Shown: positions 29,038 to 44,714 of the stretch, one piece after another
Numbering within the stretch: the stretch's first letter is position 1
Layout of the letters: each line of letters opens with the position of its first letter
Assembly: GCA_038252255.1 (NCBI GenBank)
Contig: JBBSAM010000005.1
Coordinates: forward strand, 94,040-158,039
DNA from: Acidimicrobiia bacterium
GTDB taxonomy: Bacteria; Actinomycetota; Acidimicrobiia; IMCC26256; JAENVU01
Length of the DNA stretch: 64,000 nucleotides
Direction: 5' to 3'
Made by a program: the position numbers and the translations under genes
The notes under the pieces: model-generated
Seen by the model: the letters and a program-made list of their open reading frames with translations, nothing else
Databases searched by the model: none
What the model was told of the DNA's origin: nothing

Positions 29038-29825
29038 CCGTCGGCTTCAGCGCGACCGCGCCCGCGGTCGCGCACGTCTTCGTCGACGCTGAGACCGTCG
29101 ACCTCCACGACGACGGTGCGGTGACGGTCGACGGCGACGACGGGCACCATCTGCAACGCGTGCGGCGACTGCGGGTCGGCGAAGCAGTCACGGCGAGCGA
29201 CGGCCGAGGGTCGTGGCGCCTCTGCACGATCAGCGAGATCGGCGATGGTCGTGTGACCCTCACCCCGGCGGGGCCGATGACGCTCGAGCCGTCGTTGTCG
29301 CCACGGCTCACGGTCGCGTTCGCGCCCGCCAAGGGCGACCAGGCCGGTACCGTCGTGCACCAGCTGGTCGAGCTGGGCGTGGACCGGGTGATGCCGATCA
29401 CCCTCCGCCGATCGGTGGTGCGCTGGGACGAGTCCCGGGGGGACCGGGCCCGCGCCCGTCTGCGTCGCGTCGCCCGTGAGGCCGCGATGCAGTCCCGCCG
29501 GGCGCATCTTGCCGAGGTCGTGGAGGGCGAGCCGCTCGAGCTGCTCTGCCGCCATCCGGGCCTCGTCGTGGCCGATCCGGCCGGGACCGCGGCATCGGAG
29601 CTCGCTGCGCCACCGGGGGGCGAATGGCTCGTGATCGTCGGCCCCGAGGGCGGGTTCGACCCCTCCGAGTGCGCCGGCCTCGGGCCCGCGCCCCGGCTGG
29701 CGGTCGGCCCCTACGTGCTACGGGCCGTGACCGCGCCGGTGGCCGCCGCCGCCGCTTTGGTGGGGTTTCGGAGGGCGATCGCGGACACCCCTGGCGATTC
29801 GTCGCCTCTGGGCGAGTCGACCTAG
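29034..29825 (+). CDS. rsmE: 16S rRNA (uracil1498-N3)-methyltransferase RsmE
   Basis: It has a PUA-like N-terminus plus a SPOUT C-terminus ([10 protein letters not shown]). Its start overlaps the dnaJ stop. Confidence 0.85.
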
Positions 29826-29918
29826 ACGCGCTCAGCGCGCGAGATTGTCGACAAGCGGCGAGGTACGTGGGATAGTTTCGCCGGCCGGGGCGCACGAATA
29901 CGGGGGCAGCGGGAACCG

Positions 29919-30404
29919 ATGCATGGGGTCAACGTAGGCGAGCGGCTCCGGGCGATCCGTCGACAGAAGGGGCTTTCGCTCCACGACGTCGAAGCGCGAT
30001 CCGATCTCGAGTTCAAGGCGTCAGTCCTCGGCGCGTACGAGCGGGGGGAGCGCGCCATCTCCGTGCCGCGGTTGCTCCGCCTGGCCGAGATCTACGAGGT
30101 GCCGGCGGACCAGCTCCTGCCGCGCGACGCCGACATCGAGATCAACCTCACCGAAGGCACCGATCTCGATGCCGGTTTCACGATCGACCTCGTGAAGCTC
30201 CACGCCCTCGACGACCCCGAGGCCGCCGTCCTCTCGCGCTACGCCGCGACGATCCAGCTCCAGCGGCAGGACTTCAACGGTCGCCTGCTCACGATCCGGC
30301 GCGACGACCTGCGCGTGCTGGCCGCGGTGCTCGGTCGTCGGCCCGACGACCTGGGTGTGCGGCTCGACGAGCTCGGCCTGCGCGCCAGCACGACCACTGC
30401 GTAG
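29919..30404 (+). CDS. XRE-family helix-turn-helix transcriptional regulator
   Basis: It has the HTH_3 motif (GERLRAIRRQKGLSLHDVEARS...) plus a C-terminal domain of about 90 aa with unknown function. Confidence 0.75.
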   Translation: MHGVNVGERLRAIRRQKGLSLHDVEARSDLEFKASVLGAYERGERAISVPRLLRLAEIYEVPADQLLPRDADIEINLTEGTDLDAGFTIDLVKLHALDDPEAAVLSRYAATIQLQRQDFNGRLLTIRRDDLRVLAAVLGRRPDDLGVRLDELGLRASTTTA

Positions 30405-30457
30405 CGCAGCGTCTCTCGCGCTCCTCGCGCTCGCGCGACCGCTACCCTGATCTCGAC

Positions 30458-31420
30458 GTGACGCCAACGTCTTCGACTCAGGTCAAGATCCTCGTGCCGG
30501 GGAACCACCTCATGGTGGACCTACTGGGCCAACGCGACGAGCTGCTGCGGATCATCGAGGAAGCGTTCCCGGTGCACATTCTGGTCCGGGGCAACGAGAT
30601 CACCATCTCGGGTGAGCCGGCCGACTCCGAGTCCGTAGCGCGTCTGTTCGAGGAGCTCGTCGTGCTGCTCGAGCAGGGGCACACGCTGGACCGAGAGGGA
30701 ATAGGTCGGAGCATCGAGATGATGAAGTCGGATCAGATGCCGACCGCCGTGCTCTCGACCGAGGTGATGCGGGGCCGCAAGAGCGTGCGACCGAAGACCG
30801 CGGGGCAGAAGCGGTACGTCGACGCCGTCGCGACGCACACGATCACGTTCGGCATCGGTCCGGCCGGAACCGGCAAGAGCTACCTCGCGGTCGCGCTCGC
30901 GGTGCAGGCGCTTCAGGCCAAGGAAGTCCATCGCATCATCCTCACCCGACCCGCGGTAGAAGCGGGGGAACGGCTCGGGTTCCTACCCGGCGACATGCTG
31001 GCCAAGGTCGATCCGTACCTGCGTCCGCTGTACGACGCGCTCTACGACATGCTCGAGCCGGACGGGGTCGCGCGTCTGATGGAGCGTGGCGTGATCGAGG
31101 TCGCGCCACTCGCGTACATGCGCGGCCGGACGCTCAACGACTCCTTCATCATTCTCGACGAGGCGCAGAACACGACGGCCGAGCAGATGAAGATGTTCCT
31201 GACCCGACTCGGCTTCGGTTCCAAGGTCGTCGTCACCGGTGACGTGACCCAGATCGACCTGCCCGACGGACGGAGCCGCTCCGGGCTGCTCGCGGTGCGG
31301 GAGGTGCTCGAGGGGATCGACGGCCTGGCGTTCGTGGAGCTCGGCTCGCGTGACGTGGTCCGCCACAAGATCGTCCAGGACATCGTCGACGCCTACGAGC
31401 GGAACACTTCGCGACCGTGA
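30458..31420 (+). CDS. phoH: PhoH-like ATPase (YbeZ)
   Basis: It has Walker A GPAGTGKSYLA and the PhoH signature ILDEAQN. Synteny is with ybeY. Confidence 0.93.
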   Translation: MTPTSSTQVKILVPGNHLMVDLLGQRDELLRIIEEAFPVHILVRGNEITISGEPADSESVARLFEELVVLLEQGHTLDREGIGRSIEMMKSDQMPTAVLSTEVMRGRKSVRPKTAGQKRYVDAVATHTITFGIGPAGTGKSYLAVALAVQALQAKEVHRIILTRPAVEAGERLGFLPGDMLAKVDPYLRPLYDALYDMLEPDGVARLMERGVIEVAPLAYMRGRTLNDSFIILDEAQNTTAEQMKMFLTRLGFGSKVVVTGDVTQIDLPDGRSRSGLLAVREVLEGIDGLAFVELGSRDVVRHKIVQDIVDAYERNTSRP

Positions 31421-31558
31421 CGTCGGTGGGTGTGAAGCGGCGAGCGGCCCCAGGCCGGCACGCGGTCCAGCCTGGAGGGCTGCGAGCGTGACGTCGGTGG
31501 GTGTGAAGCGGCGAGCGGCCCCAGGCCGGCACGCGGTCCAGCCTGGAGGGCTGCGACC
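31417..31558 (+). repeat. Tandem duplication, 2 x 71 bp (70/71 identical), exactly at the phoH stop / ybeY start junction
   Basis: The units are 31417-31487 and 31488-31558. The 19-mer GCGA(C/G)CGTGACGTCGGTGG recurs at 31411, 31482 and 31553. Each unit encodes a 24-codon GTG...TGA mini-ORF (31417-31491, 31488-31562). Confidence 0.95.
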
Positions 31559-32074
31559 GTGACGTCGGTGGAGGTGTTCGGGGCGGATGAGCAGTCGGCG
31601 GTAGTGGTCGACGTCGTGCGGTGGATCCGGCTGGCCCGGCTCGTGCTGGCCGAGGAGCGGGTGCCGGGCGTCGCCGAGCTCTCGTTGATCTTCGTGGACC
31701 AGCAGTCGATCACGGACCTCAACGAGCGGTTCCTCGGCGGGACCGGTCCCACGGACGTTCTGGCCTTCCCGATGGACGACGACGTCGTGCTCGGGGGGCG
31801 CCAGCCGGACCAGGGCGGCCGGGGTCCCGGGGCGCCGGCAGAGGCGGGGGAGCCCCCCAGCCTGATCGGCGATGTCGTGATCTGCCCCCAGGTCGCGGCG
31901 GAGCAGGCACCGGAGCACGGATGGGGCACCGATGACGAGATCGCCCTCCTCGTCGTCCACGGTGTGCTGCATCTGCTCAACTATGACCATGCCGATCCGC
32001 GTGAGCATGCGGCGATGCAGCGGAGAGAGCGCGAGCTGCTCGCCCGCTTCCGCGAGCTCGAGCAGGGGGACTGA
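31559..32074 (+). CDS. ybeY: rRNA maturation endoribonuclease YbeY
   Basis: It has the HGVLHLLNYDH zinc-binding motif and is 171 aa. Confidence 0.93.
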   Translation: MTSVEVFGADEQSAVVVDVVRWIRLARLVLAEERVPGVAELSLIFVDQQSITDLNERFLGGTGPTDVLAFPMDDDVVLGGRQPDQGGRGPGAPAEAGEPPSLIGDVVICPQVAAEQAPEHGWGTDDEIALLVVHGVLHLLNYDHADPREHAAMQRRERELLARFRELEQGD

Positions 32075-32133
32075 CCACTGAGCACCGGTCCGCTGCCAAG
32101 TCCCGTGCCCCATCCGGCCAGTAGGGAAGCCAA

Positions 32134-33450
32134 GTGAGCGGAGCAGACTGGGCGATCCTCGTCGCAGTCATCGTGCTGTTCCTGGTGTCGATCGTCCTCG
32201 CGATGGCCGAGACCGCGTTCACGCGCATGAGCCGCATCCGCGCCCTCTCGCTCGAGGAAGAGGGCAAGAAGGGTGCCCGACGGCTCGCGCAGATGCTCGA
32301 GAAGCCCGAGCAGACCCTCAATGTGGTGCTGCTGCTCGTCCTGGTCTCGCAGCTGACCAGCGCGTCGCTGCTCGGTGCGCTCCTCGAGCGCTCGTTCGGC
32401 AGTGCCGGATTGTTCGCCGGCCTCGTGATCCAGATCGTCGTGTACTTCGTGATCGGCGAGGTCGCGCCGAAGACGTACGCGATCCAGAACCCGGACCGCG
32501 CCGCGTTGCGCGTCTCCGGGTTCCTCTGGGCCGTGACCAACTTCCCACCGCTGCGCCTGCTCTCACGCGGCTTGATCGGCCTCGCCAACGTCATGCTGCC
32601 GGGCAAGGGCTTGAAGCAGGGCCCGTTCGTCACCGAGGAGGATCTGCGCACGATGGCGGACGTCGCCGCCGACGAGATGGAGATCGAGCGGGAGGAGCGC
32701 CGTCTCATCCATTCGATCTTCGAATTCGGTGACACCGTCACGCACGAAGTGATGCGTCCACGGCCGGACATGGTCGCGATCGACTGCAACGAGACCGTCG
32801 AGGCGGGGATCGAGACCGCGATCGAAGGTGGGTTCTCACGTATCCCCTGCTACGAGGACGACACCGACAACATCATCGGGATCGTGTACCTGAAGGACCT
32901 CGTGCACCGATCCCGAGAGGGCGGTGGCAACGACCCGGTCCGCGTCGCCGTGCGCGACGCCGTGTTCGTCCCGGAGTCGAAGCGGGTGGCGGAGCTCCTG
33001 CGCGAGATGCGCACGCAGAAGTTCCACATGGCGATCGTCGTCGACGAGCACGGCGGCACCGCGGGCCTGGTGACGCTCGAGGACCTGCTCGAGGAGATCG
33101 TCGGCGAGATCGTGGACGAGTACGACACCGAGGAGCCCGGCGTCGAGCCGCTCGCGGGCGGCGGCATCCGGGCGCCGGGGCGCACGCCGATCGACGAGGT
33201 GAACGAGGTGCTCGGGGTCGAGCTCCCCGACACCGAGTGGGACACGGTCGGCGGGCTCGTCTTCAACCTGCTCGGCCACGTGCCCGAAGCCGGTGAGACC
33301 GTGAAGTTCCAAGGCCTGGAGTTCCGCACCGAACGGGTCGAGGGACGGCGGATCGCGTCCGTGGCGATCATCCCCGTGGCCGGCAACGGGAAACGCGTCG
33401 AGGGCAGCCCGGACCAGGCCGAGCCCCAACGCGCCGCCGGCCACCAGTAG
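32134..33450 (+). CDS. Hemolysin/CorC/TlyC family protein (DUF21-CBS-CorC_HlyC)
   Basis: It has an N-terminal DUF21 membrane domain, a CBS pair and a CorC_HlyC C-terminus. It sits in the conserved position between ybeY and era. Confidence 0.88.
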   Translation: MSGADWAILVAVIVLFLVSIVLAMAETAFTRMSRIRALSLEEEGKKGARRLAQMLEKPEQTLNVVLLLVLVSQLTSASLLGALLERSFGSAGLFAGLVIQIVVYFVIGEVAPKTYAIQNPDRAALRVSGFLWAVTNFPPLRLLSRGLIGLANVMLPGKGLKQGPFVTEEDLRTMADVAADEMEIEREERRLIHSIFEFGDTVTHEVMRPRPDMVAIDCNETVEAGIETAIEGGFSRIPCYEDDTDNIIGIVYLKDLVHRSREGGGNDPVRVAVRDAVFVPESKRVAELLREMRTQKFHMAIVVDEHGGTAGLVTLEDLLEEIVGEIVDEYDTEEPGVEPLAGGGIRAPGRTPIDEVNEVLGVELPDTEWDTVGGLVFNLLGHVPEAGETVKFQGLEFRTERVEGRRIASVAIIPVAGNGKRVEGSPDQAEPQRAAGHQ

Positions 33451-33457
33451 CGCTGCG

Positions 33458-34366
33458 ATGACCGAGCGCGAGTTCCGGTCGGGTTTCGTCAGCCTCGTGG
33501 GCCGGCCGAACGTGGGGAAGTCCACGCTCGTCAACCAGATCGTCGGGTCGAAGGTCTCGATCGTCTCCAGCCGGCCGCAGACGACGCGCACGCAGATTCG
33601 CGGCGTGCGCACCACCGCCGAGTCGCAGATCGTGCTGCTCGACACCCCGGGGATCCACAAGCCGCGCACGCTGCTCGGCGAACGGTGCAACAGCCGCTCC
33701 GTGCAGACGCTCGCGGAGGTGGATGTCGTGTGCCTCGTGGTCGAGGCGAACGCGGTGATCGGTGGGGGTGACCGGTTCATCTCCGAGCTCGTGCACCAGG
33801 TCCGCACCCCGAGCGTGCTCGTCCTGAACAAGATCGACGTCGCGAGCCACGCCGACGTCGCCGACCATCTCGGGCAGGTGACGGCCGAGCTGGGGGACTT
33901 CGAGGCGTTCGTCCCGCTCTCGGCCCGCACCGGTGAGGGCGTGCCCGCGCTCGTGGCCGAGCTCGAGGCCCGGCTCCCACCGGGTCCGGTGTACTACCCG
34001 GACGGGATCGTGAGCGACCAGCCCGAGACGTCGCTCGTAGCCGAGCTCGTGCGCGAGAAGCTCCTCGCGATCGCTCGCGACGAGCTGCCGCACTCGATCG
34101 TGGTGACGGCCGAGCCGCTCGACGAGGAGGGACCGGACGCGGGGGACGACGACATCCTGCGCTACCGGGTCGTCGTGCGGGTCGAGCGGGACTCCCAGAA
34201 GGGGATCGTGATCGGGAAGGGCGGGACGGTCATCCGCGACGCCGGCACGAAGGCCCGCCAGGAGCTCGAGATCCTCCTCGGCGCCAAGGTCTATCTGGAG
34301 ACCAAGGTCCGGGTGGATCCGGACTGGCAGCGCCGGGCCCACTCTCTCGACCGGCTCGGCTTGTAG
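33458..34366 (+). CDS. era: GTPase Era
   Basis: It has G1 GRPNVGKST, DTPG, NKID, and a KH C-terminal domain. Confidence 0.96.
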   Translation: MTEREFRSGFVSLVGRPNVGKSTLVNQIVGSKVSIVSSRPQTTRTQIRGVRTTAESQIVLLDTPGIHKPRTLLGERCNSRSVQTLAEVDVVCLVVEANAVIGGGDRFISELVHQVRTPSVLVLNKIDVASHADVADHLGQVTAELGDFEAFVPLSARTGEGVPALVAELEARLPPGPVYYPDGIVSDQPETSLVAELVREKLLAIARDELPHSIVVTAEPLDEEGPDAGDDDILRYRVVVRVERDSQKGIVIGKGGTVIRDAGTKARQELEILLGAKVYLETKVRVDPDWQRRAHSLDRLGL

Positions 34367-38238: not shown

Positions 38239-38334
38239 ATGAGCGCAGCGGGAACATCAAGCGGCTACGGCCGAGGAACCAGCGGAGCGTGGCCCGAGCG
38301 GCCCGGGCCGCAGGGCCGAGAGCGGGAGTCATGA
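38239..38334 (+). CDS. 31-codon mini-ORF / leader element, copy A (MSAAGTSSGYGRGTSGAWPERPGPQGRERES)
   Basis: ATG 38239 follows GGGGAG. Its TGA overlaps the next gene's ATG (ATGA). The 3' 54 nt are 47/54 identical to 44661-44714. Coding status is unproven. Confidence 0.35.
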   Translation: MSAAGTSSGYGRGTSGAWPERPGPQGRERES

Positions 38335-38729
38335 ACGGCGACGACCAGGCACTGCTTCCGGGGACCGTGGCGGAGCGGGAGGACGAGCTGGAGCACGGCC
38401 TCTCGGTGATCTCGCCCGACGAGGTGCCGCTGCTGCCGGGGGAGGAGCGGGCGCACCCGTCGCCGTTCCAGTACGTGATCATCTTCGTGATCCTGTGCGT
38501 GATCACCGCCCTCGAGATCGGCTTGTACTACCTCGAGGACGACCTGCCCTGGAGCCTGATCGTCGGGCTGCTCCTCGTCATGGCGCTCATCAAGTTCGTG
38601 ATGGTCGCGAGCTGGTTCATGCACCTGCGCACGGACAAGCCCATCTTCCGGCGCTTCTTCATCATGGGCGGCGTCGCGGCCATCACCCTCTTCACGATCG
38701 TCCTGACGACGTTCCGCGTCTTCGACTGA
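38331..38729 (+). CDS. Cytochrome c oxidase subunit IV family protein (prokaryotic COX4 type)
   Basis: It has three hydrophobic helices (YVIIFVILCVITALEIGLYY..., LLLVMALIKFVMVASWFMHL). I preferred the ATG at 38331. GTG 38289 is an alternative start. Confidence 0.8.
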   Translation: MNGDDQALLPGTVAEREDELEHGLSVISPDEVPLLPGEERAHPSPFQYVIIFVILCVITALEIGLYYLEDDLPWSLIVGLLLVMALIKFVMVASWFMHLRTDKPIFRRFFIMGGVAAITLFTIVLTTFRVFD

Positions 38730-43293: not shown

Positions 43294-44622
43294 GTGGCCC
43301 GTCCCGACTTGATGGACCGCGTCGTCAACCTCGCGAAACGACGTGGCCTGGTCTTCCCCTCCAGTGAGATCTATGGCGGATTCCGTTCGACGTGGGATTA
43401 CGGACCCCTCGGCGTGCTCTTGAAGCGCAACGTCAAGGAGGCGTGGTGGCGGTCCATGGTCCAGCTCCGCGACGACGTCGTCGGCCTCGACGCCGCCATC
43501 CTCATGGCGCCCAGGGTCTGGGAGGCCAGCGGGCACCTGAAGACCTTCACGGACCCCCTCGTGGACTGCCGGAGCTGCCAGGAGCGCTTCCGGGCGGACC
43601 AGCTGCCCGATTCCGGCGCGTGCCCCAACTGCGGGGCCAAGGGCTCGTTCACGGAAGCCCGGAACTTCAACCTGATGTTCAAGACGTTCGTGGGCCCGGT
43701 GGAGGACGACACGTCCGTCGCCTACCTGCGCCCGGAGACGGCGCAGGGCATCCTCGTCAACTTCAAGAACGTGCAGACCACGACGCGCAAGAAGCCACCG
43801 TTCGGAATCGCGCAGATCGGCAAGTCGTTCCGCAACGAGATCACCCCGGGAAACTTCGTCTTTCGCACCCGTGAGTTCGAACAGATGGAGATGGAGTACT
43901 TCGTCCCGCCCGAAGACGCGCCGCACTGGTACGAGTACTGGTGCCAGCAGCGCTTCCACTGGTACCAGGACCTCGGAATTCCCGAGGAGATGCTGCGGCT
44001 CCGACCGCACGATCCCGACGAGCTCTCGCACTACAGCGTCGCGACGAGCGACGTGGAGTTCGACTACCCGTGGGGCTGGGGCGAGCTCGAGGGCATCGCG
44101 AACCGCACGGACTACGACCTCAAGCAGCACAGCGAGTTCTCCGGCGAGGACCTCTCCTACTTCGACCAGGAGGGCGACCGCCACTACGTCCCGTACGTGA
44201 TCGAGCCCGCCGCCGGCGCCGACCGCGCCACCCTCGCCTTTCTCCTCGCGGCCTACCACGAGGACGAAGCGCCGACCGCGGACGGCAAGGTCGAGAAGCG
44301 GACGGTGCTCCGCCTCGACCACCGGCTCGCGCCGAACAAGGTCGCGGTCCTGCCGCTGTCGAAGAACGAGAAGCTCGTTCCTACTGCCGGCGAGGTCGCC
44401 GCGGATCTCCGGCGGCACTTCCAGACCGACGTCGACGTCGCGGGGGCGATCGGCCGCCGCTACCGCCGCCAGGACGAGGTCGGTACCCCGTACTGCGTCA
44501 CGATCGACTTCGACACCCTCGACGATCGGGCGGTGACGGTGCGCGATCGCGACTCGATGGGCCAGGACCGGGTGTCGCTCGACCGCCTCGTCAACCATCT
44601 GCGGGAGCTGTTGCCCACATGA
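43294..44622 (+). CDS. glyQS: Glycyl-tRNA synthetase (class II, dimeric type)
   Basis: It has [17 protein letters not shown]... and class II motifs. ATG 43312 is an alternative start. Confidence 0.93.
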
Positions 44623-44714
44623 GTGAAGCGGACACCATTCCGATCCTCCGCCGTGTGTCGAGCGGAGCGGGGCCCGAGCGGCCCGGACCGAAGGGACGAG
44701 AGCGGAAGCGATGA
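44619..44714 (+). CDS. 31-codon mini-ORF / leader element, copy B ([31 protein letters not shown])
   Basis: Its ATG overlaps the glyQS stop (ATGA) and its TGA overlaps the next ATG (ATGA). It has the same 96-nt length as copy A. Coding status is unproven. Confidence 0.35.

What the first reader, a model, noticed from the sequence alone, without database searches (positions are those of the whole stretch)
31411..31571. Near-identical 2 x 71-bp tandem duplication at the phoH/ybeY junction creates a relay of GTGA-coupled mini-ORFs
The 19-mer GCGACCGTGACGTCGGTGG contains the phoH stop and a GTG start in GTGA overlap. It occurs at 31411, at 31482 (with one C->G change) and at 31553. These copies bracket two 71-nt units (31417-31487 and 31488-31558, 70/71 identical). 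Each unit begins with the ybeY start context (GTG ACG TCG GTG = MTSV) and ends in a TGA overlapping the next GTG. This yields two 24-codon ORFs (MTSVGVKRRAAPGRHAVQPGGLRA and ...LRP; 31417-31491 and 31488-31562). Ribosomes finishing phoH would have to pass through three successive GTGA restart sites to reach ybeY, each shifting the frame by -1. The 52-nt non-flank core (GTGTGAAGCGG...CCTGGAGGGCT) has an imperfect hairpin (CCAGGC/GCCTGG plus GCCC/GGGC) and no obvious source in this window. The near identity indicates a very recent event: slippage, or insertion of a small element with a 19-bp target duplication that was then duplicated.
Basis: seen in the sequence. Interest (0 to 1): 0.6.

Follow-up and report, generated by a model that had tools for sequence, protein, structure and literature searches.

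The report
Duplicated relay cassette between phoH and ybeY
A 71-base cassette with a tiny reading frame and a hairpin sits on the start of the ribosome-maturation gene ybeY and has recently doubled in this soil bacterium; it is an old, genus-specific counterpart of the MIRU repeats of mycobacteria, so it is modestly interesting, not a new principle.

Summary
Window 31411-31571 holds 2.3 copies of a 71-nt unit (70/71 identical) between phoH and ybeY. It forms a chain phoH -GTGA- 24-codon ORF -GTGA- 24-codon ORF -GTGA- ybeY, and each step shifts the frame by -1.

The unit is not a new insertion. A diverged homologue sits at the same junction in four other species of this uncultured Acidimicrobiia genus: two units in G008, one each in G010 and G005, a truncated one in G004. 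Six species and the nearest database relatives have a tight junction. On the locus tree, carriers are mixed with non-carriers, which indicates an old cassette gained, lost and doubled through its flanking direct repeats.

Conserved features:
- the 3n-1 length
- the mini-ORF with its TGA stop(s) and new GTG
- a 7-bp stem with compensatory changes that encloses a GGAGG 9 nt before the next start
- a 19-nt 5' block far more conserved than neutral sites

There is no other copy in any genome searched, no Rfam match, and no match to the 96-nt relay-repeat family in the same genome.

Best reading: an orphan MIRU-like translational relay cassette, recently duplicated by slippage.

The parts
30458..31420 (+). 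phoH (PhoH-like ATPase, 320 aa). Its TGA stop (31418-31420) overlaps the GTG of mini-ORF 1.
   Evidence: ORF list; Pfam PF02562 at E 2.8e-96.
31411..31429 (+). Flank copy 1 of the 19-mer GCGACCGTGACGTCGGTGG. It holds the phoH stop and a copy of the ybeY start context.
   Evidence: Sequence; TRF.
31417..31491 (+). Mini-ORF 1: 24 codons (M)TSVGVKRRAAPGRHAVQPGGLRA, with GTGA overlaps at both ends. Unit 1 is 31417-31487.
   Evidence: GC1/2/3 is flat at 0.84/0.68/0.72, against 0.69/0.40/0.88 for phoH.
31425..31443 (+). Conserved 5' block of unit 1 (GGTGGGTGTGAAGCGGCGA). Mean identity among units of four species is 87%, against 52-68% at four-fold degenerate sites.
31444..31483 (+). Hairpin of unit 1. 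The outer stem pairs 31444-31450 with 31477-31483 and the inner stem pairs 31451-31455 with 31470-31474. GGAGG (31474-31478) lies in the 3' half, 9 nt before GTG 31488.
   Evidence: Covariation count gives 35/35 cells paired and 3 of 7 pairs with changes on both sides. RNAalifold picks the same helix. Local fold is -23.2 kcal/mol.
31482..31500 (+). Flank copy 2 (GCGAGCGTGACGTCGGTGG, one C->G change). It holds the stop of mini-ORF 1 and the start of mini-ORF 2.
31488..31562 (+). Mini-ORF 2: 24 codons ending ..GGLRP. Its TGA overlaps the ybeY GTG. Unit 2 is 31488-31558.
   Evidence: In one search it appears as the tail of the longer ORF 31350-31562.
31515..31554 (+). Hairpin of unit 2, with stem 31515-31521 pairing with 31548-31554. 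GGAGG (31545-31549) lies 9 nt before the ybeY GTG at 31559.
   Evidence: Same sequence as unit 1.
31553..31571 (+). Flank copy 3 of the 19-mer. It holds the stop of mini-ORF 2 and the true ybeY start.
31559..32074 (+). ybeY (endoribonuclease YbeY, 171 aa; N-terminus MTSVEVFGADEQ).
   Evidence: Pfam PF02130 at E 4.7e-33; 80 related loci.
32134..34366 (+). Rest of the operon: a CNNM/CBS/CorC (YbeX-like) gene at 32134-33450 and era at 33458-34366.
   Evidence: Pfam.

Best explanation
The array is two copies of an old, genus-specific, single-locus cassette of 71 nt (3n-1) that sits on the start of ybeY and works like a mycobacterial MIRU. The cassette has six elements in order: the displaced original ybeY start, a 22-24-codon mini-ORF, a conserved 5' block, a hairpin whose 3' half holds a Shine-Dalgarno-like GGAGG, one or two in-frame TGA stops, and a new GTG that restores the ybeY N-terminus.

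Inferred mechanism: a ribosome that finishes phoH restarts at the overlapping GTG and translates the mini-ORF through the hairpin, which frees the GGAGG. It stops at a TGA that overlaps the next GTG (or lies 2 nt before it in relatives) and restarts there. With two units this happens twice before ybeY is reached, so ybeY stays translationally tied to phoH despite 142 extra bases.

In this genome the cassette went from one copy to two very recently, by slipped-strand or unequal recombination between the 19-nt flanking direct repeats. The same repeats allow precise loss, which explains the 0/1/2-copy pattern among species.

Shown: the anatomy, the homologues, the conservation pattern, the covariation and the patchy distribution. 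Inferred: that the mini-ORFs are translated, that the hairpin masks the SD, and that coupling depends on them.
For: - Anatomy and phase.
- Homologous units sit at the same junction in G008 (2), G010 (1), G005 (1) and G004 (truncated). They align without gaps over the 71-nt period despite 61-75% identity.
- A mini-ORF is kept in all full-length units that are reliably assembled. It ends TGA-NN-GTG in G008 and G005. In G000 the first of the two in-frame TGAs has become CGA, which creates the -4 overlap.
- The stem pairs in 35/35 cells, with 3 of 7 pairs changed on both sides. Slid controls pair only 34-51%, and 11 of 500 shuffles reach the observed values. RNAalifold finds the same helix.
- Isolated hairpins fold at -13.5 to -23.3 kcal/mol, and the stretch 5-16 nt before the next start is mostly paired (P unpaired 0.30-0.42).
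- The 5' block (87%) and the stop/start tail (95%) are far more conserved than four-fold degenerate sites of the flanking genes (52-68%). The loop region (47%) is at or below that neutral level.
- On the locus tree G008 (2 units) is sister to G003 (0) at 100/100, G010 (1) pairs with G001 (0), and G000 (2) pairs with G004 (truncated).
- The flat GC1/2/3 of the mini-ORFs fits a frame whose product is irrelevant.
- The same genome has another chain with identical grammar: 180 aa, then 23, 23 and 17 codons, all -4 overlaps (C40:20705-20886).
- In other genera the same junction carries members of dispersed repeat families.
- MIRUs are described as inserting at start codons with an internal ORF coupled at -4 nt (PMC12548453), and as 40-100-bp units with variable copy number (PMC2734929).
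Against: - Only five distinct full units from four species support the covariation. I first saw the stem by eye in these same sequences, and 11 of 500 shuffles is suggestive, not decisive.
- Whole-unit minimum free energies are no better than shuffled sequence (z from -0.9 to +1.4).
- An open frame of 22-24 codons is expected by chance at this GC content, so the ORF alone proves nothing.
- G008 unit B has only a weak SD-like motif.
- G004 has lost the 5' arm, and its unit is 43 nt as assembled (not 3n-1). G010 as assembled is also out of phase. Both are low-completeness long-read bins with evident G-run errors, so these cases neither support nor refute the model.
- The strong conservation of the 5' block is not explained by a simple relay.
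- There are no expression or ribosome-profiling data, and copy number in the reads could not be checked.
Confidence: 0.6

Rival explanations
1. Tolerated junk. The cassette and its duplication have no role. ybeY is translated independently from the GGAGG in front of it, the mini-ORFs are not translated or do not matter, and the repeat persists only because it is harmless and comes and goes by slippage.
For: Six of eleven species and the nearest database relatives do well without it. G004 carries a decayed unit. The loop region evolves neutrally. Fold energies are no better than shuffles. An open 24-codon frame is expected by chance in GC-rich DNA.
Against: The 5' block and tail are much more conserved than neutral sites. 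The stem keeps pairing through three double changes. Units of 61-75% identity show no indel over 71 nt. The stops and the restart codon are kept in every reliably assembled full unit.
Confidence: 0.2
2. A cis-regulatory RNA element. The conserved 5' block plus hairpin would be a binding or processing site, for an RNase or for a ribosome-assembly factor of the same operon, that sets the level of ybeY, ybeX and era. The mini-ORF would be incidental.
For: The 19-nt 5' block is 87% conserved with no role in the relay model. The stem shows covariation. The location is inside a ribosome-biogenesis operon: phoH, ybeY, a CorC-like gene and era.
Against: There is no Rfam match. The element is present in only 4-5 of 11 species and has been lost repeatedly. 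It can be doubled without apparent harm. No partner or second conserved structure was found, and the covariance model finds nothing elsewhere.
Confidence: 0.1
3. The two-copy state is an assembly artefact of a short-read metagenome bin, and the true copy number is one or some other number.
For: The genome is a 304-contig bin. The array (161 nt) is about as long as a typical short read. Reads could not be inspected.
Against: The middle flank carries a G variant with core sequence on both sides, which needs a real core-flank-core junction. G008, a 7-contig assembly, also has two units. The same assembly resolves many other short arrays.
Confidence: 0.05
4. The mini-ORF encodes a functional micropeptide with a conserved N-terminal half (SVGVERRTAP).
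For: In the 5' block, three of five substitutions are synonymous in the mini-ORF frame (GTG/GTA, GAG/GAA, CGA/AGA).
Against: Three of five is not significant. There is no coding-type GC periodicity. The C-terminal half is unconserved. The amino-acid changes at codon 10 follow the base pairing of the stem, not the peptide. The cassette has been lost repeatedly.
Confidence: 0.03

Closest known systems
MIRUs, mycobacterial interspersed repetitive units (Supply et al. 1997, 2000, as described in PMC12548453 and PMC2734929)
   Same: A short unit (40-100 bp) lies between co-oriented operon genes, on a start codon. An internal small ORF is coupled at -4 nt to the neighbouring genes. The units form tandem arrays whose copy number varies between relatives, while close relatives without the repeat have only a few bases between stop and start.
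   Different: This cassette is not interspersed: one locus only, in every genome searched. It comes from a different class (Acidimicrobiia). Sequence relatedness to MIRUs was not tested. It also carries a stem with covariation around the SD and a 5' block under purifying selection; whether MIRUs have these I did not check.
Dispersed 96-nt relay repeat of this same genome (window 38239-38335 and 44619-44714; earlier notes e1-3525293 and e1-3525295)
   Same: The grammar is the same: a 3n-1 unit (92 nt from ATG to ATG), RTGA overlaps at both ends, and a G+C-rich hairpin containing GAGCGGCC.
   Different: That family has 20 copies in this genome. Its nhmmer profile does not detect the phoH/ybeY cassette even at E <= 100, so the two are not demonstrably homologous.
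Translational coupling by RNA unfolding, for example phage f1 genes VII/IX and E. coli rpmI-rplT (reviewed in PMC12548453)
   Same: A hairpin covers the ribosome-binding site of the downstream cistron. The upstream reading frame runs through the hairpin and ends at or next to the downstream start.
   Different: Here the upstream frame is a 24-codon relay that is itself fed by termination-reinitiation, and the whole device is a repeatable cassette. The dependence of ybeY translation on it is inferred, not measured.

Membership tests
MIRU (mycobacterial interspersed repetitive units) | Unit of 40-100 bp able to form tandem arrays | tested here: met
   The unit is 71 nt, with 2.3 copies here and 0, 1 or 2 units in relatives.
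MIRU (mycobacterial interspersed repetitive units) | [quoted passage not shown] | tested here: met
   It lies between phoH and ybeY on the + strand. In G010 the upstream flank is the ancestral ybeY start, MPSTSV.
MIRU (mycobacterial interspersed repetitive units) | Internal small ORF whose start and stop overlap those of the neighbouring genes (-4 nt) | tested here: met
   All three junctions in this genome are GTGA. In G008 and G005 the spacing is TGA-NN-GTG, that is +2.
MIRU (mycobacterial interspersed repetitive units) | Interspersed: many loci per genome (41 in M. tuberculosis H37Rv, per PMC2734929) | tested here: not met
   Only the phoH/ybeY locus was found: in the own genome, in 11 genomes of the genus, in 34 genomes of the family with a covariance model, and in the metagenome pattern scan.
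MIRU (mycobacterial interspersed repetitive units) | Sequence similarity to the MIRU consensus | not tested
   No mycobacterial MIRU sequence was fetched, and I did not type one from memory.
MIRU (mycobacterial interspersed repetitive units) | Copy number polymorphic among strains of one species | not testable with these tools
   Variation between species is shown.
96-nt relay-repeat family of this genome | Match to the family profile | tested here: not met
   The nhmmer profile, iterated four times, finds 20 copies. It gives no hit at C5:125450-125610 even with --max and E <= 100.
RNA-unfolding type of translational coupling | Secondary structure covering the RBS of the downstream cistron | tested here: inconclusive
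   The stem has covariation and GGAGG lies inside its 3' half. However, there are only five sequences, and whole-unit folds are no better than shuffles.
RNA-unfolding type of translational coupling | Downstream translation depends on translation of the upstream frame | not testable with these tools
   This needs reporter fusions or ribosome profiling.
Described cis-regulatory RNA families (Rfam 15) | Score at or above a family's gathering threshold | tested here: not met
   The best matches score 10.9-20.1 bits against thresholds of 45-100, all to unrelated families.
Intrinsic terminator or attenuator | G+C-rich stem followed by a run of T | tested here: not met
   No terminator-like site was found in 29800-32300, and no T run follows the hairpin.

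The most novel reading that the evidence does not exclude
The cassette is a domesticated regulatory leader instead of a passive relay. On this reading the strongly conserved 5' block plus the covarying hairpin is recognised by a product of the same ribosome-biogenesis operon (YbeY, PhoH or Era) or by the ribosome itself. ybeY translation would then be fed back on ribosome-assembly state, and copy number (0, 1 or 2) would set the gain of that feedback.
Probability: 0.08. Interest if true: 0.7.

Novelty: new variant of a known kind. Interest (0 to 1): 0.33.

Why it matters
The finding adds a clean natural example of how a bacterium tolerates extra DNA placed exactly on an essential gene's start. 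The insert brings its own start, stops, SD and phase (3n-1), so ribosomes are handed on to the next gene. It also shows that such a cassette can outlive its family as a single-locus orphan, stay under selection, and behave as a variable-number tandem repeat.

Together with the different inserts at the same junction in other genera, it marks the phoH|ybeY overlap as a recurrent landing site in Acidimicrobiia.

Practically, the 0/1/2-unit series is a ready-made natural experiment for measuring the cost of each termination-reinitiation step, and the array is a possible strain marker. It does not reveal a new principle.

Tried and rejected
- **Dispersed mobile element (MITE or REP):** rejected for this genus. 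There is no second copy in the own genome, in 11 genomes of the genus or in 34 genomes of the family with a covariance model. The three weak hits lie inside long ORFs.
- **More copies in metagenomes:** a degenerate pattern of the conserved block gave 30 hits, all in unrelated contexts.
- **Origin as a degenerate duplication of the ybeY 5' end or the phoH 3' end:** local alignment scores were 12 and 18, against a null mean of 16.2 (sd 2.9) from random genome windows. Not supported.
- **Membership of the 96-nt relay family of this genome:** the profile does not detect the cassette.
- **Known RNA family, terminator or promoter at the junction:** none found.
- **Thermodynamic stability as evidence:** uninformative at this GC content.
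- **More strains through exact YbeY proteins:** the nearest database proteins (P0001, P0002, P0012, P0020) have tight junctions. The window's own YbeY and those of G008 and G005 are not on record.
- **Functional micropeptide:** there is no codon periodicity, and the synonymous excess is not significant.

Full report
**Observation.**
- Tandem Repeats Finder reports one array at 31411-31571, with period 71, 2.3 copies, 97% matches and score 315.
- The 19-mer GCGACCGTGACGTCGGTGG is at 31411 and 31553, and at 31482 with one C->G change.
- phoH ends at 31420 and ybeY starts at 31559. Both identities are confirmed by Pfam, and the downstream genes are a CNNM/CBS/CorC gene and era.
- Two 24-codon frames (31417-31491 and 31488-31562) bridge the gap with GTGA overlaps at all three junctions. 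The start coordinates modulo 3 run 2, 1, 0, 2, so each step shifts the frame by -1.
- The unit has no other copy in the 5.19-Mb, 304-contig genome.

**Organism and normal state of the junction.**
- The nearest records are uncultured soil Acidimicrobiia bins.
- In 80 related loci the phoH stop and ybeY start usually overlap or lie a few bases apart (ATGA, GTGA).
- Several separate lineages carry inserts of 70-220 nt exactly at this junction.
- In G035 the insert belongs to a hairpin repeat with at least 35 hits genome-wide. In the genome of L090 the central part of the insert has four further partial copies. The junction is therefore a recurrent landing site for small repeats in this class.

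**The unit is old.** Within the genus (11 species genomes):
- G008 has two diverged units at the same junction.
- G010 and G005 have one unit each.
- G004 has a truncated unit.
- G001, G002, G003, G006, G007 and G009 have none.

The full units align without a single gap over the 71-nt period, apart from two one-base gaps in G-runs of the error-prone G010 assembly, although they are only 61-75% identical to the G000 unit. The closest YbeY relatives in the protein collection (P0001, P0002, P0012, P0020) also have tight junctions.

On a tree of the flanking phoH and ybeY DNA, carriers do not form a clade. G008 (2 units) is sister to G003 (0) with 100/100 support, G010 (1) pairs with G001 (0), and G000 (2) pairs with G004 (truncated). 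The two basal species have none. The simplest reading is a cassette present in the ancestor of nine species, then lost precisely or doubled by recombination between its flanking direct repeats. In G010 the upstream flank is the ancestral ybeY start (MPSTSV...). So the mini-ORF begins at the original ybeY start, and the cassette supplies the stops and a new GTG that restores MTSVEVFG.

**What is conserved.**
- Four-fold degenerate sites of the flanking genes are 52-68% identical between G000, G008, G010 and G005.
- Within the cassette, the 19-nt 5' block is 87% identical, the stop/start tail 95%, the two stem arms 74-77%, and the 26-nt middle 47%. Parts of the cassette are therefore under purifying selection while the loop drifts.
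- The arms (window 31444-31450 with 31477-31483, and 31515-31521 with 31548-31554) pair in 35 of 35 cells. Three of the seven pairs have changes on both sides. Partners slid by 1-3 columns pair in only 34-51% of cells, and 11 of 500 column shuffles reach the observed values. RNAalifold predicts the same helix on its own.
- The isolated hairpins fold at -13.5 to -23.3 kcal/mol.
- In G000, GGAGG (31474-31478 and 31545-31549) lies in the 3' half of the hairpin, 9 nt before the next GTG. Most other units have a G-rich SD-like motif at 9-13 nt; G008 unit B has only a weak one.
- All reliably assembled full units keep a 22-24-codon frame that ends at TGA. G008 and G010 have two in-frame TGAs (TGA GCG TGA), and G008 and G005 have a 2-nt spacer before the GTG. 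In G000 the first TGA has become CGA, which creates the -4 overlap.

**Caveats.**
- Five distinct units are few, and I found the stem by eye before testing it.
- Whole-unit fold energies are no better than shuffles.
- An open 24-codon frame is expected by chance at this GC content.
- G004 (43 nt as assembled) and G010 (out of phase as assembled) come from bins of 57-63% completeness. G010 has a G-run indel inside ybeY itself, so their phase cannot be trusted.
- The mini-ORFs have flat GC1/2/3 (about 0.7-0.84 / 0.65-0.74 / 0.72-0.76), against 0.69/0.40/0.88 for phoH. They do not look like protein genes, which fits a frame whose translation matters and whose product does not.

**What it is not.**
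- It is not a dispersed element in this genus, and it was not found in the metagenome pattern scan.
- It is not a known RNA family.
- It is not a terminator.
- It is not detectably derived from the neighbouring coding sequence.
- It is not a member of the 96-nt relay family. Earlier notes of this scan reported that family in the same window; I confirmed it has 20 copies in this genome, and its profile does not detect this cassette.

**Mechanism proposed.** The cassette works like a MIRU. MIRUs are described as inserting at start codons so that an internal ORF is coupled at -4 nt to the target gene (PMC12548453). They are 40-100-bp units with variable copy number, absent from close relatives that have only a few bases between stop and start (PMC2734929).

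Here a ribosome finishing phoH would restart at the overlapping GTG, translate through the hairpin and expose the GGAGG. It would then stop at the TGA on the next GTG and restart. With two units this occurs twice before ybeY is reached. This combines the two published models of coupling, termination-reinitiation and RNA unfolding.

The same genome holds at least one other chain with this grammar but unrelated sequence: a 180-aa gene followed by frames of 23, 23 and 17 codons, all with -4 overlaps (C40:20705-20886).

The near-identity of the two units (70/71) dates the doubling in G000 after its split from G004. Slippage or unequal exchange between the 19-nt flanks is the obvious route. All functional steps are inferred; none is measured.

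**Unexplained.** The 5' block (GGTGGGTGTGGAGCGGCGA) is more conserved than a simple relay requires. Three of its five substitutions are synonymous in the mini-ORF frame, which is not significant. It may be a peptide constraint, a binding site or an alternative pairing partner. This leaves a small probability for a regulatory role.

**Verdict.** This is a sequence-unrelated, single-locus variant of a known kind of element, with modest interest.

Noticed in passing
L090, L098, L103 versus L091, L106 (phoH/ybeY junction, about 990-1200 in each locus): A palindromic insert of about 200 nt with long terminal inverted repeats (GAGGGCACGGGGGGTCGACGGCCCGGCGCCGGGC...) sits at the same phoH/ybeY junction in one orientation in three genomes and in the reverse orientation in two others. 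This suggests either inversion in place or independent insertions. Its central part has four more partial copies in the genome of L090.
   Followed up: partly
L020 (G035:C4:1634352-1634463): The phoH/ybeY spacer of G035 holds two tandem units of a hairpin repeat (GCGAGCGAGCGGCC-CGCGGGTCGGG-TAT-CCCGACCCGC-AGCGAGCG). The repeat has at least 35 hits across that 2.6-Mb genome, on both strands and partly in tandem. G026 and G029 carry related GGGTAWCCC-loop sequences at the same junction.
   Followed up: partly
G000:C40:20705-20886 (outside the window): A 68-nt x 2.7 array at 99% identity forms a chain of a 180-aa gene followed by frames of 23, 23 and 17 codons, all with -4 overlaps. The grammar is the same as the phoH/ybeY array but the sequence is unrelated. 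C6:62020-62228 (68 nt x 3.1, unit starting ATGA) looks similar by period and motif, but my chain test did not pick it up.
   Followed up: partly
G000 whole genome, e.g. C3:123741-124083, C6:20591-20833, C27:55943-56126: There are dozens of high-identity tandem arrays with periods of 54-67 nt, built from palindromic units of the type CCGCCGGAGGGCG...CGCCCTCCGGAGATCT. They look like a REP-like hairpin family that is often tandemly amplified (up to 5.1 copies).
   Followed up: no
window 38239-38335 and 44619-44714: The 96-nt relay repeat noted by earlier agents has 20 copies in this genome by an iterated nhmmer profile, most of them full length at 96 nt.
   Followed up: partly
window 31401-31420, compared with relatives: In G000 and G004 the ancestral phoH stop (..AAC ACG TGA) is lost. 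phoH reads 3-4 codons further to the TGA of the GTGA overlap (C-termini ..NTSRP and ..KKSPSP against ..KNT). The repeat flank has therefore overwritten the end of phoH.
   Followed up: no
window 29919-30404, with a promoter-like site at 29848-29876: A BldD-like HTH regulator gene (PF21179 and PF01381) lies directly upstream of phoH. The only sigma-70-like promoter match in the region is in front of it.
   Followed up: no
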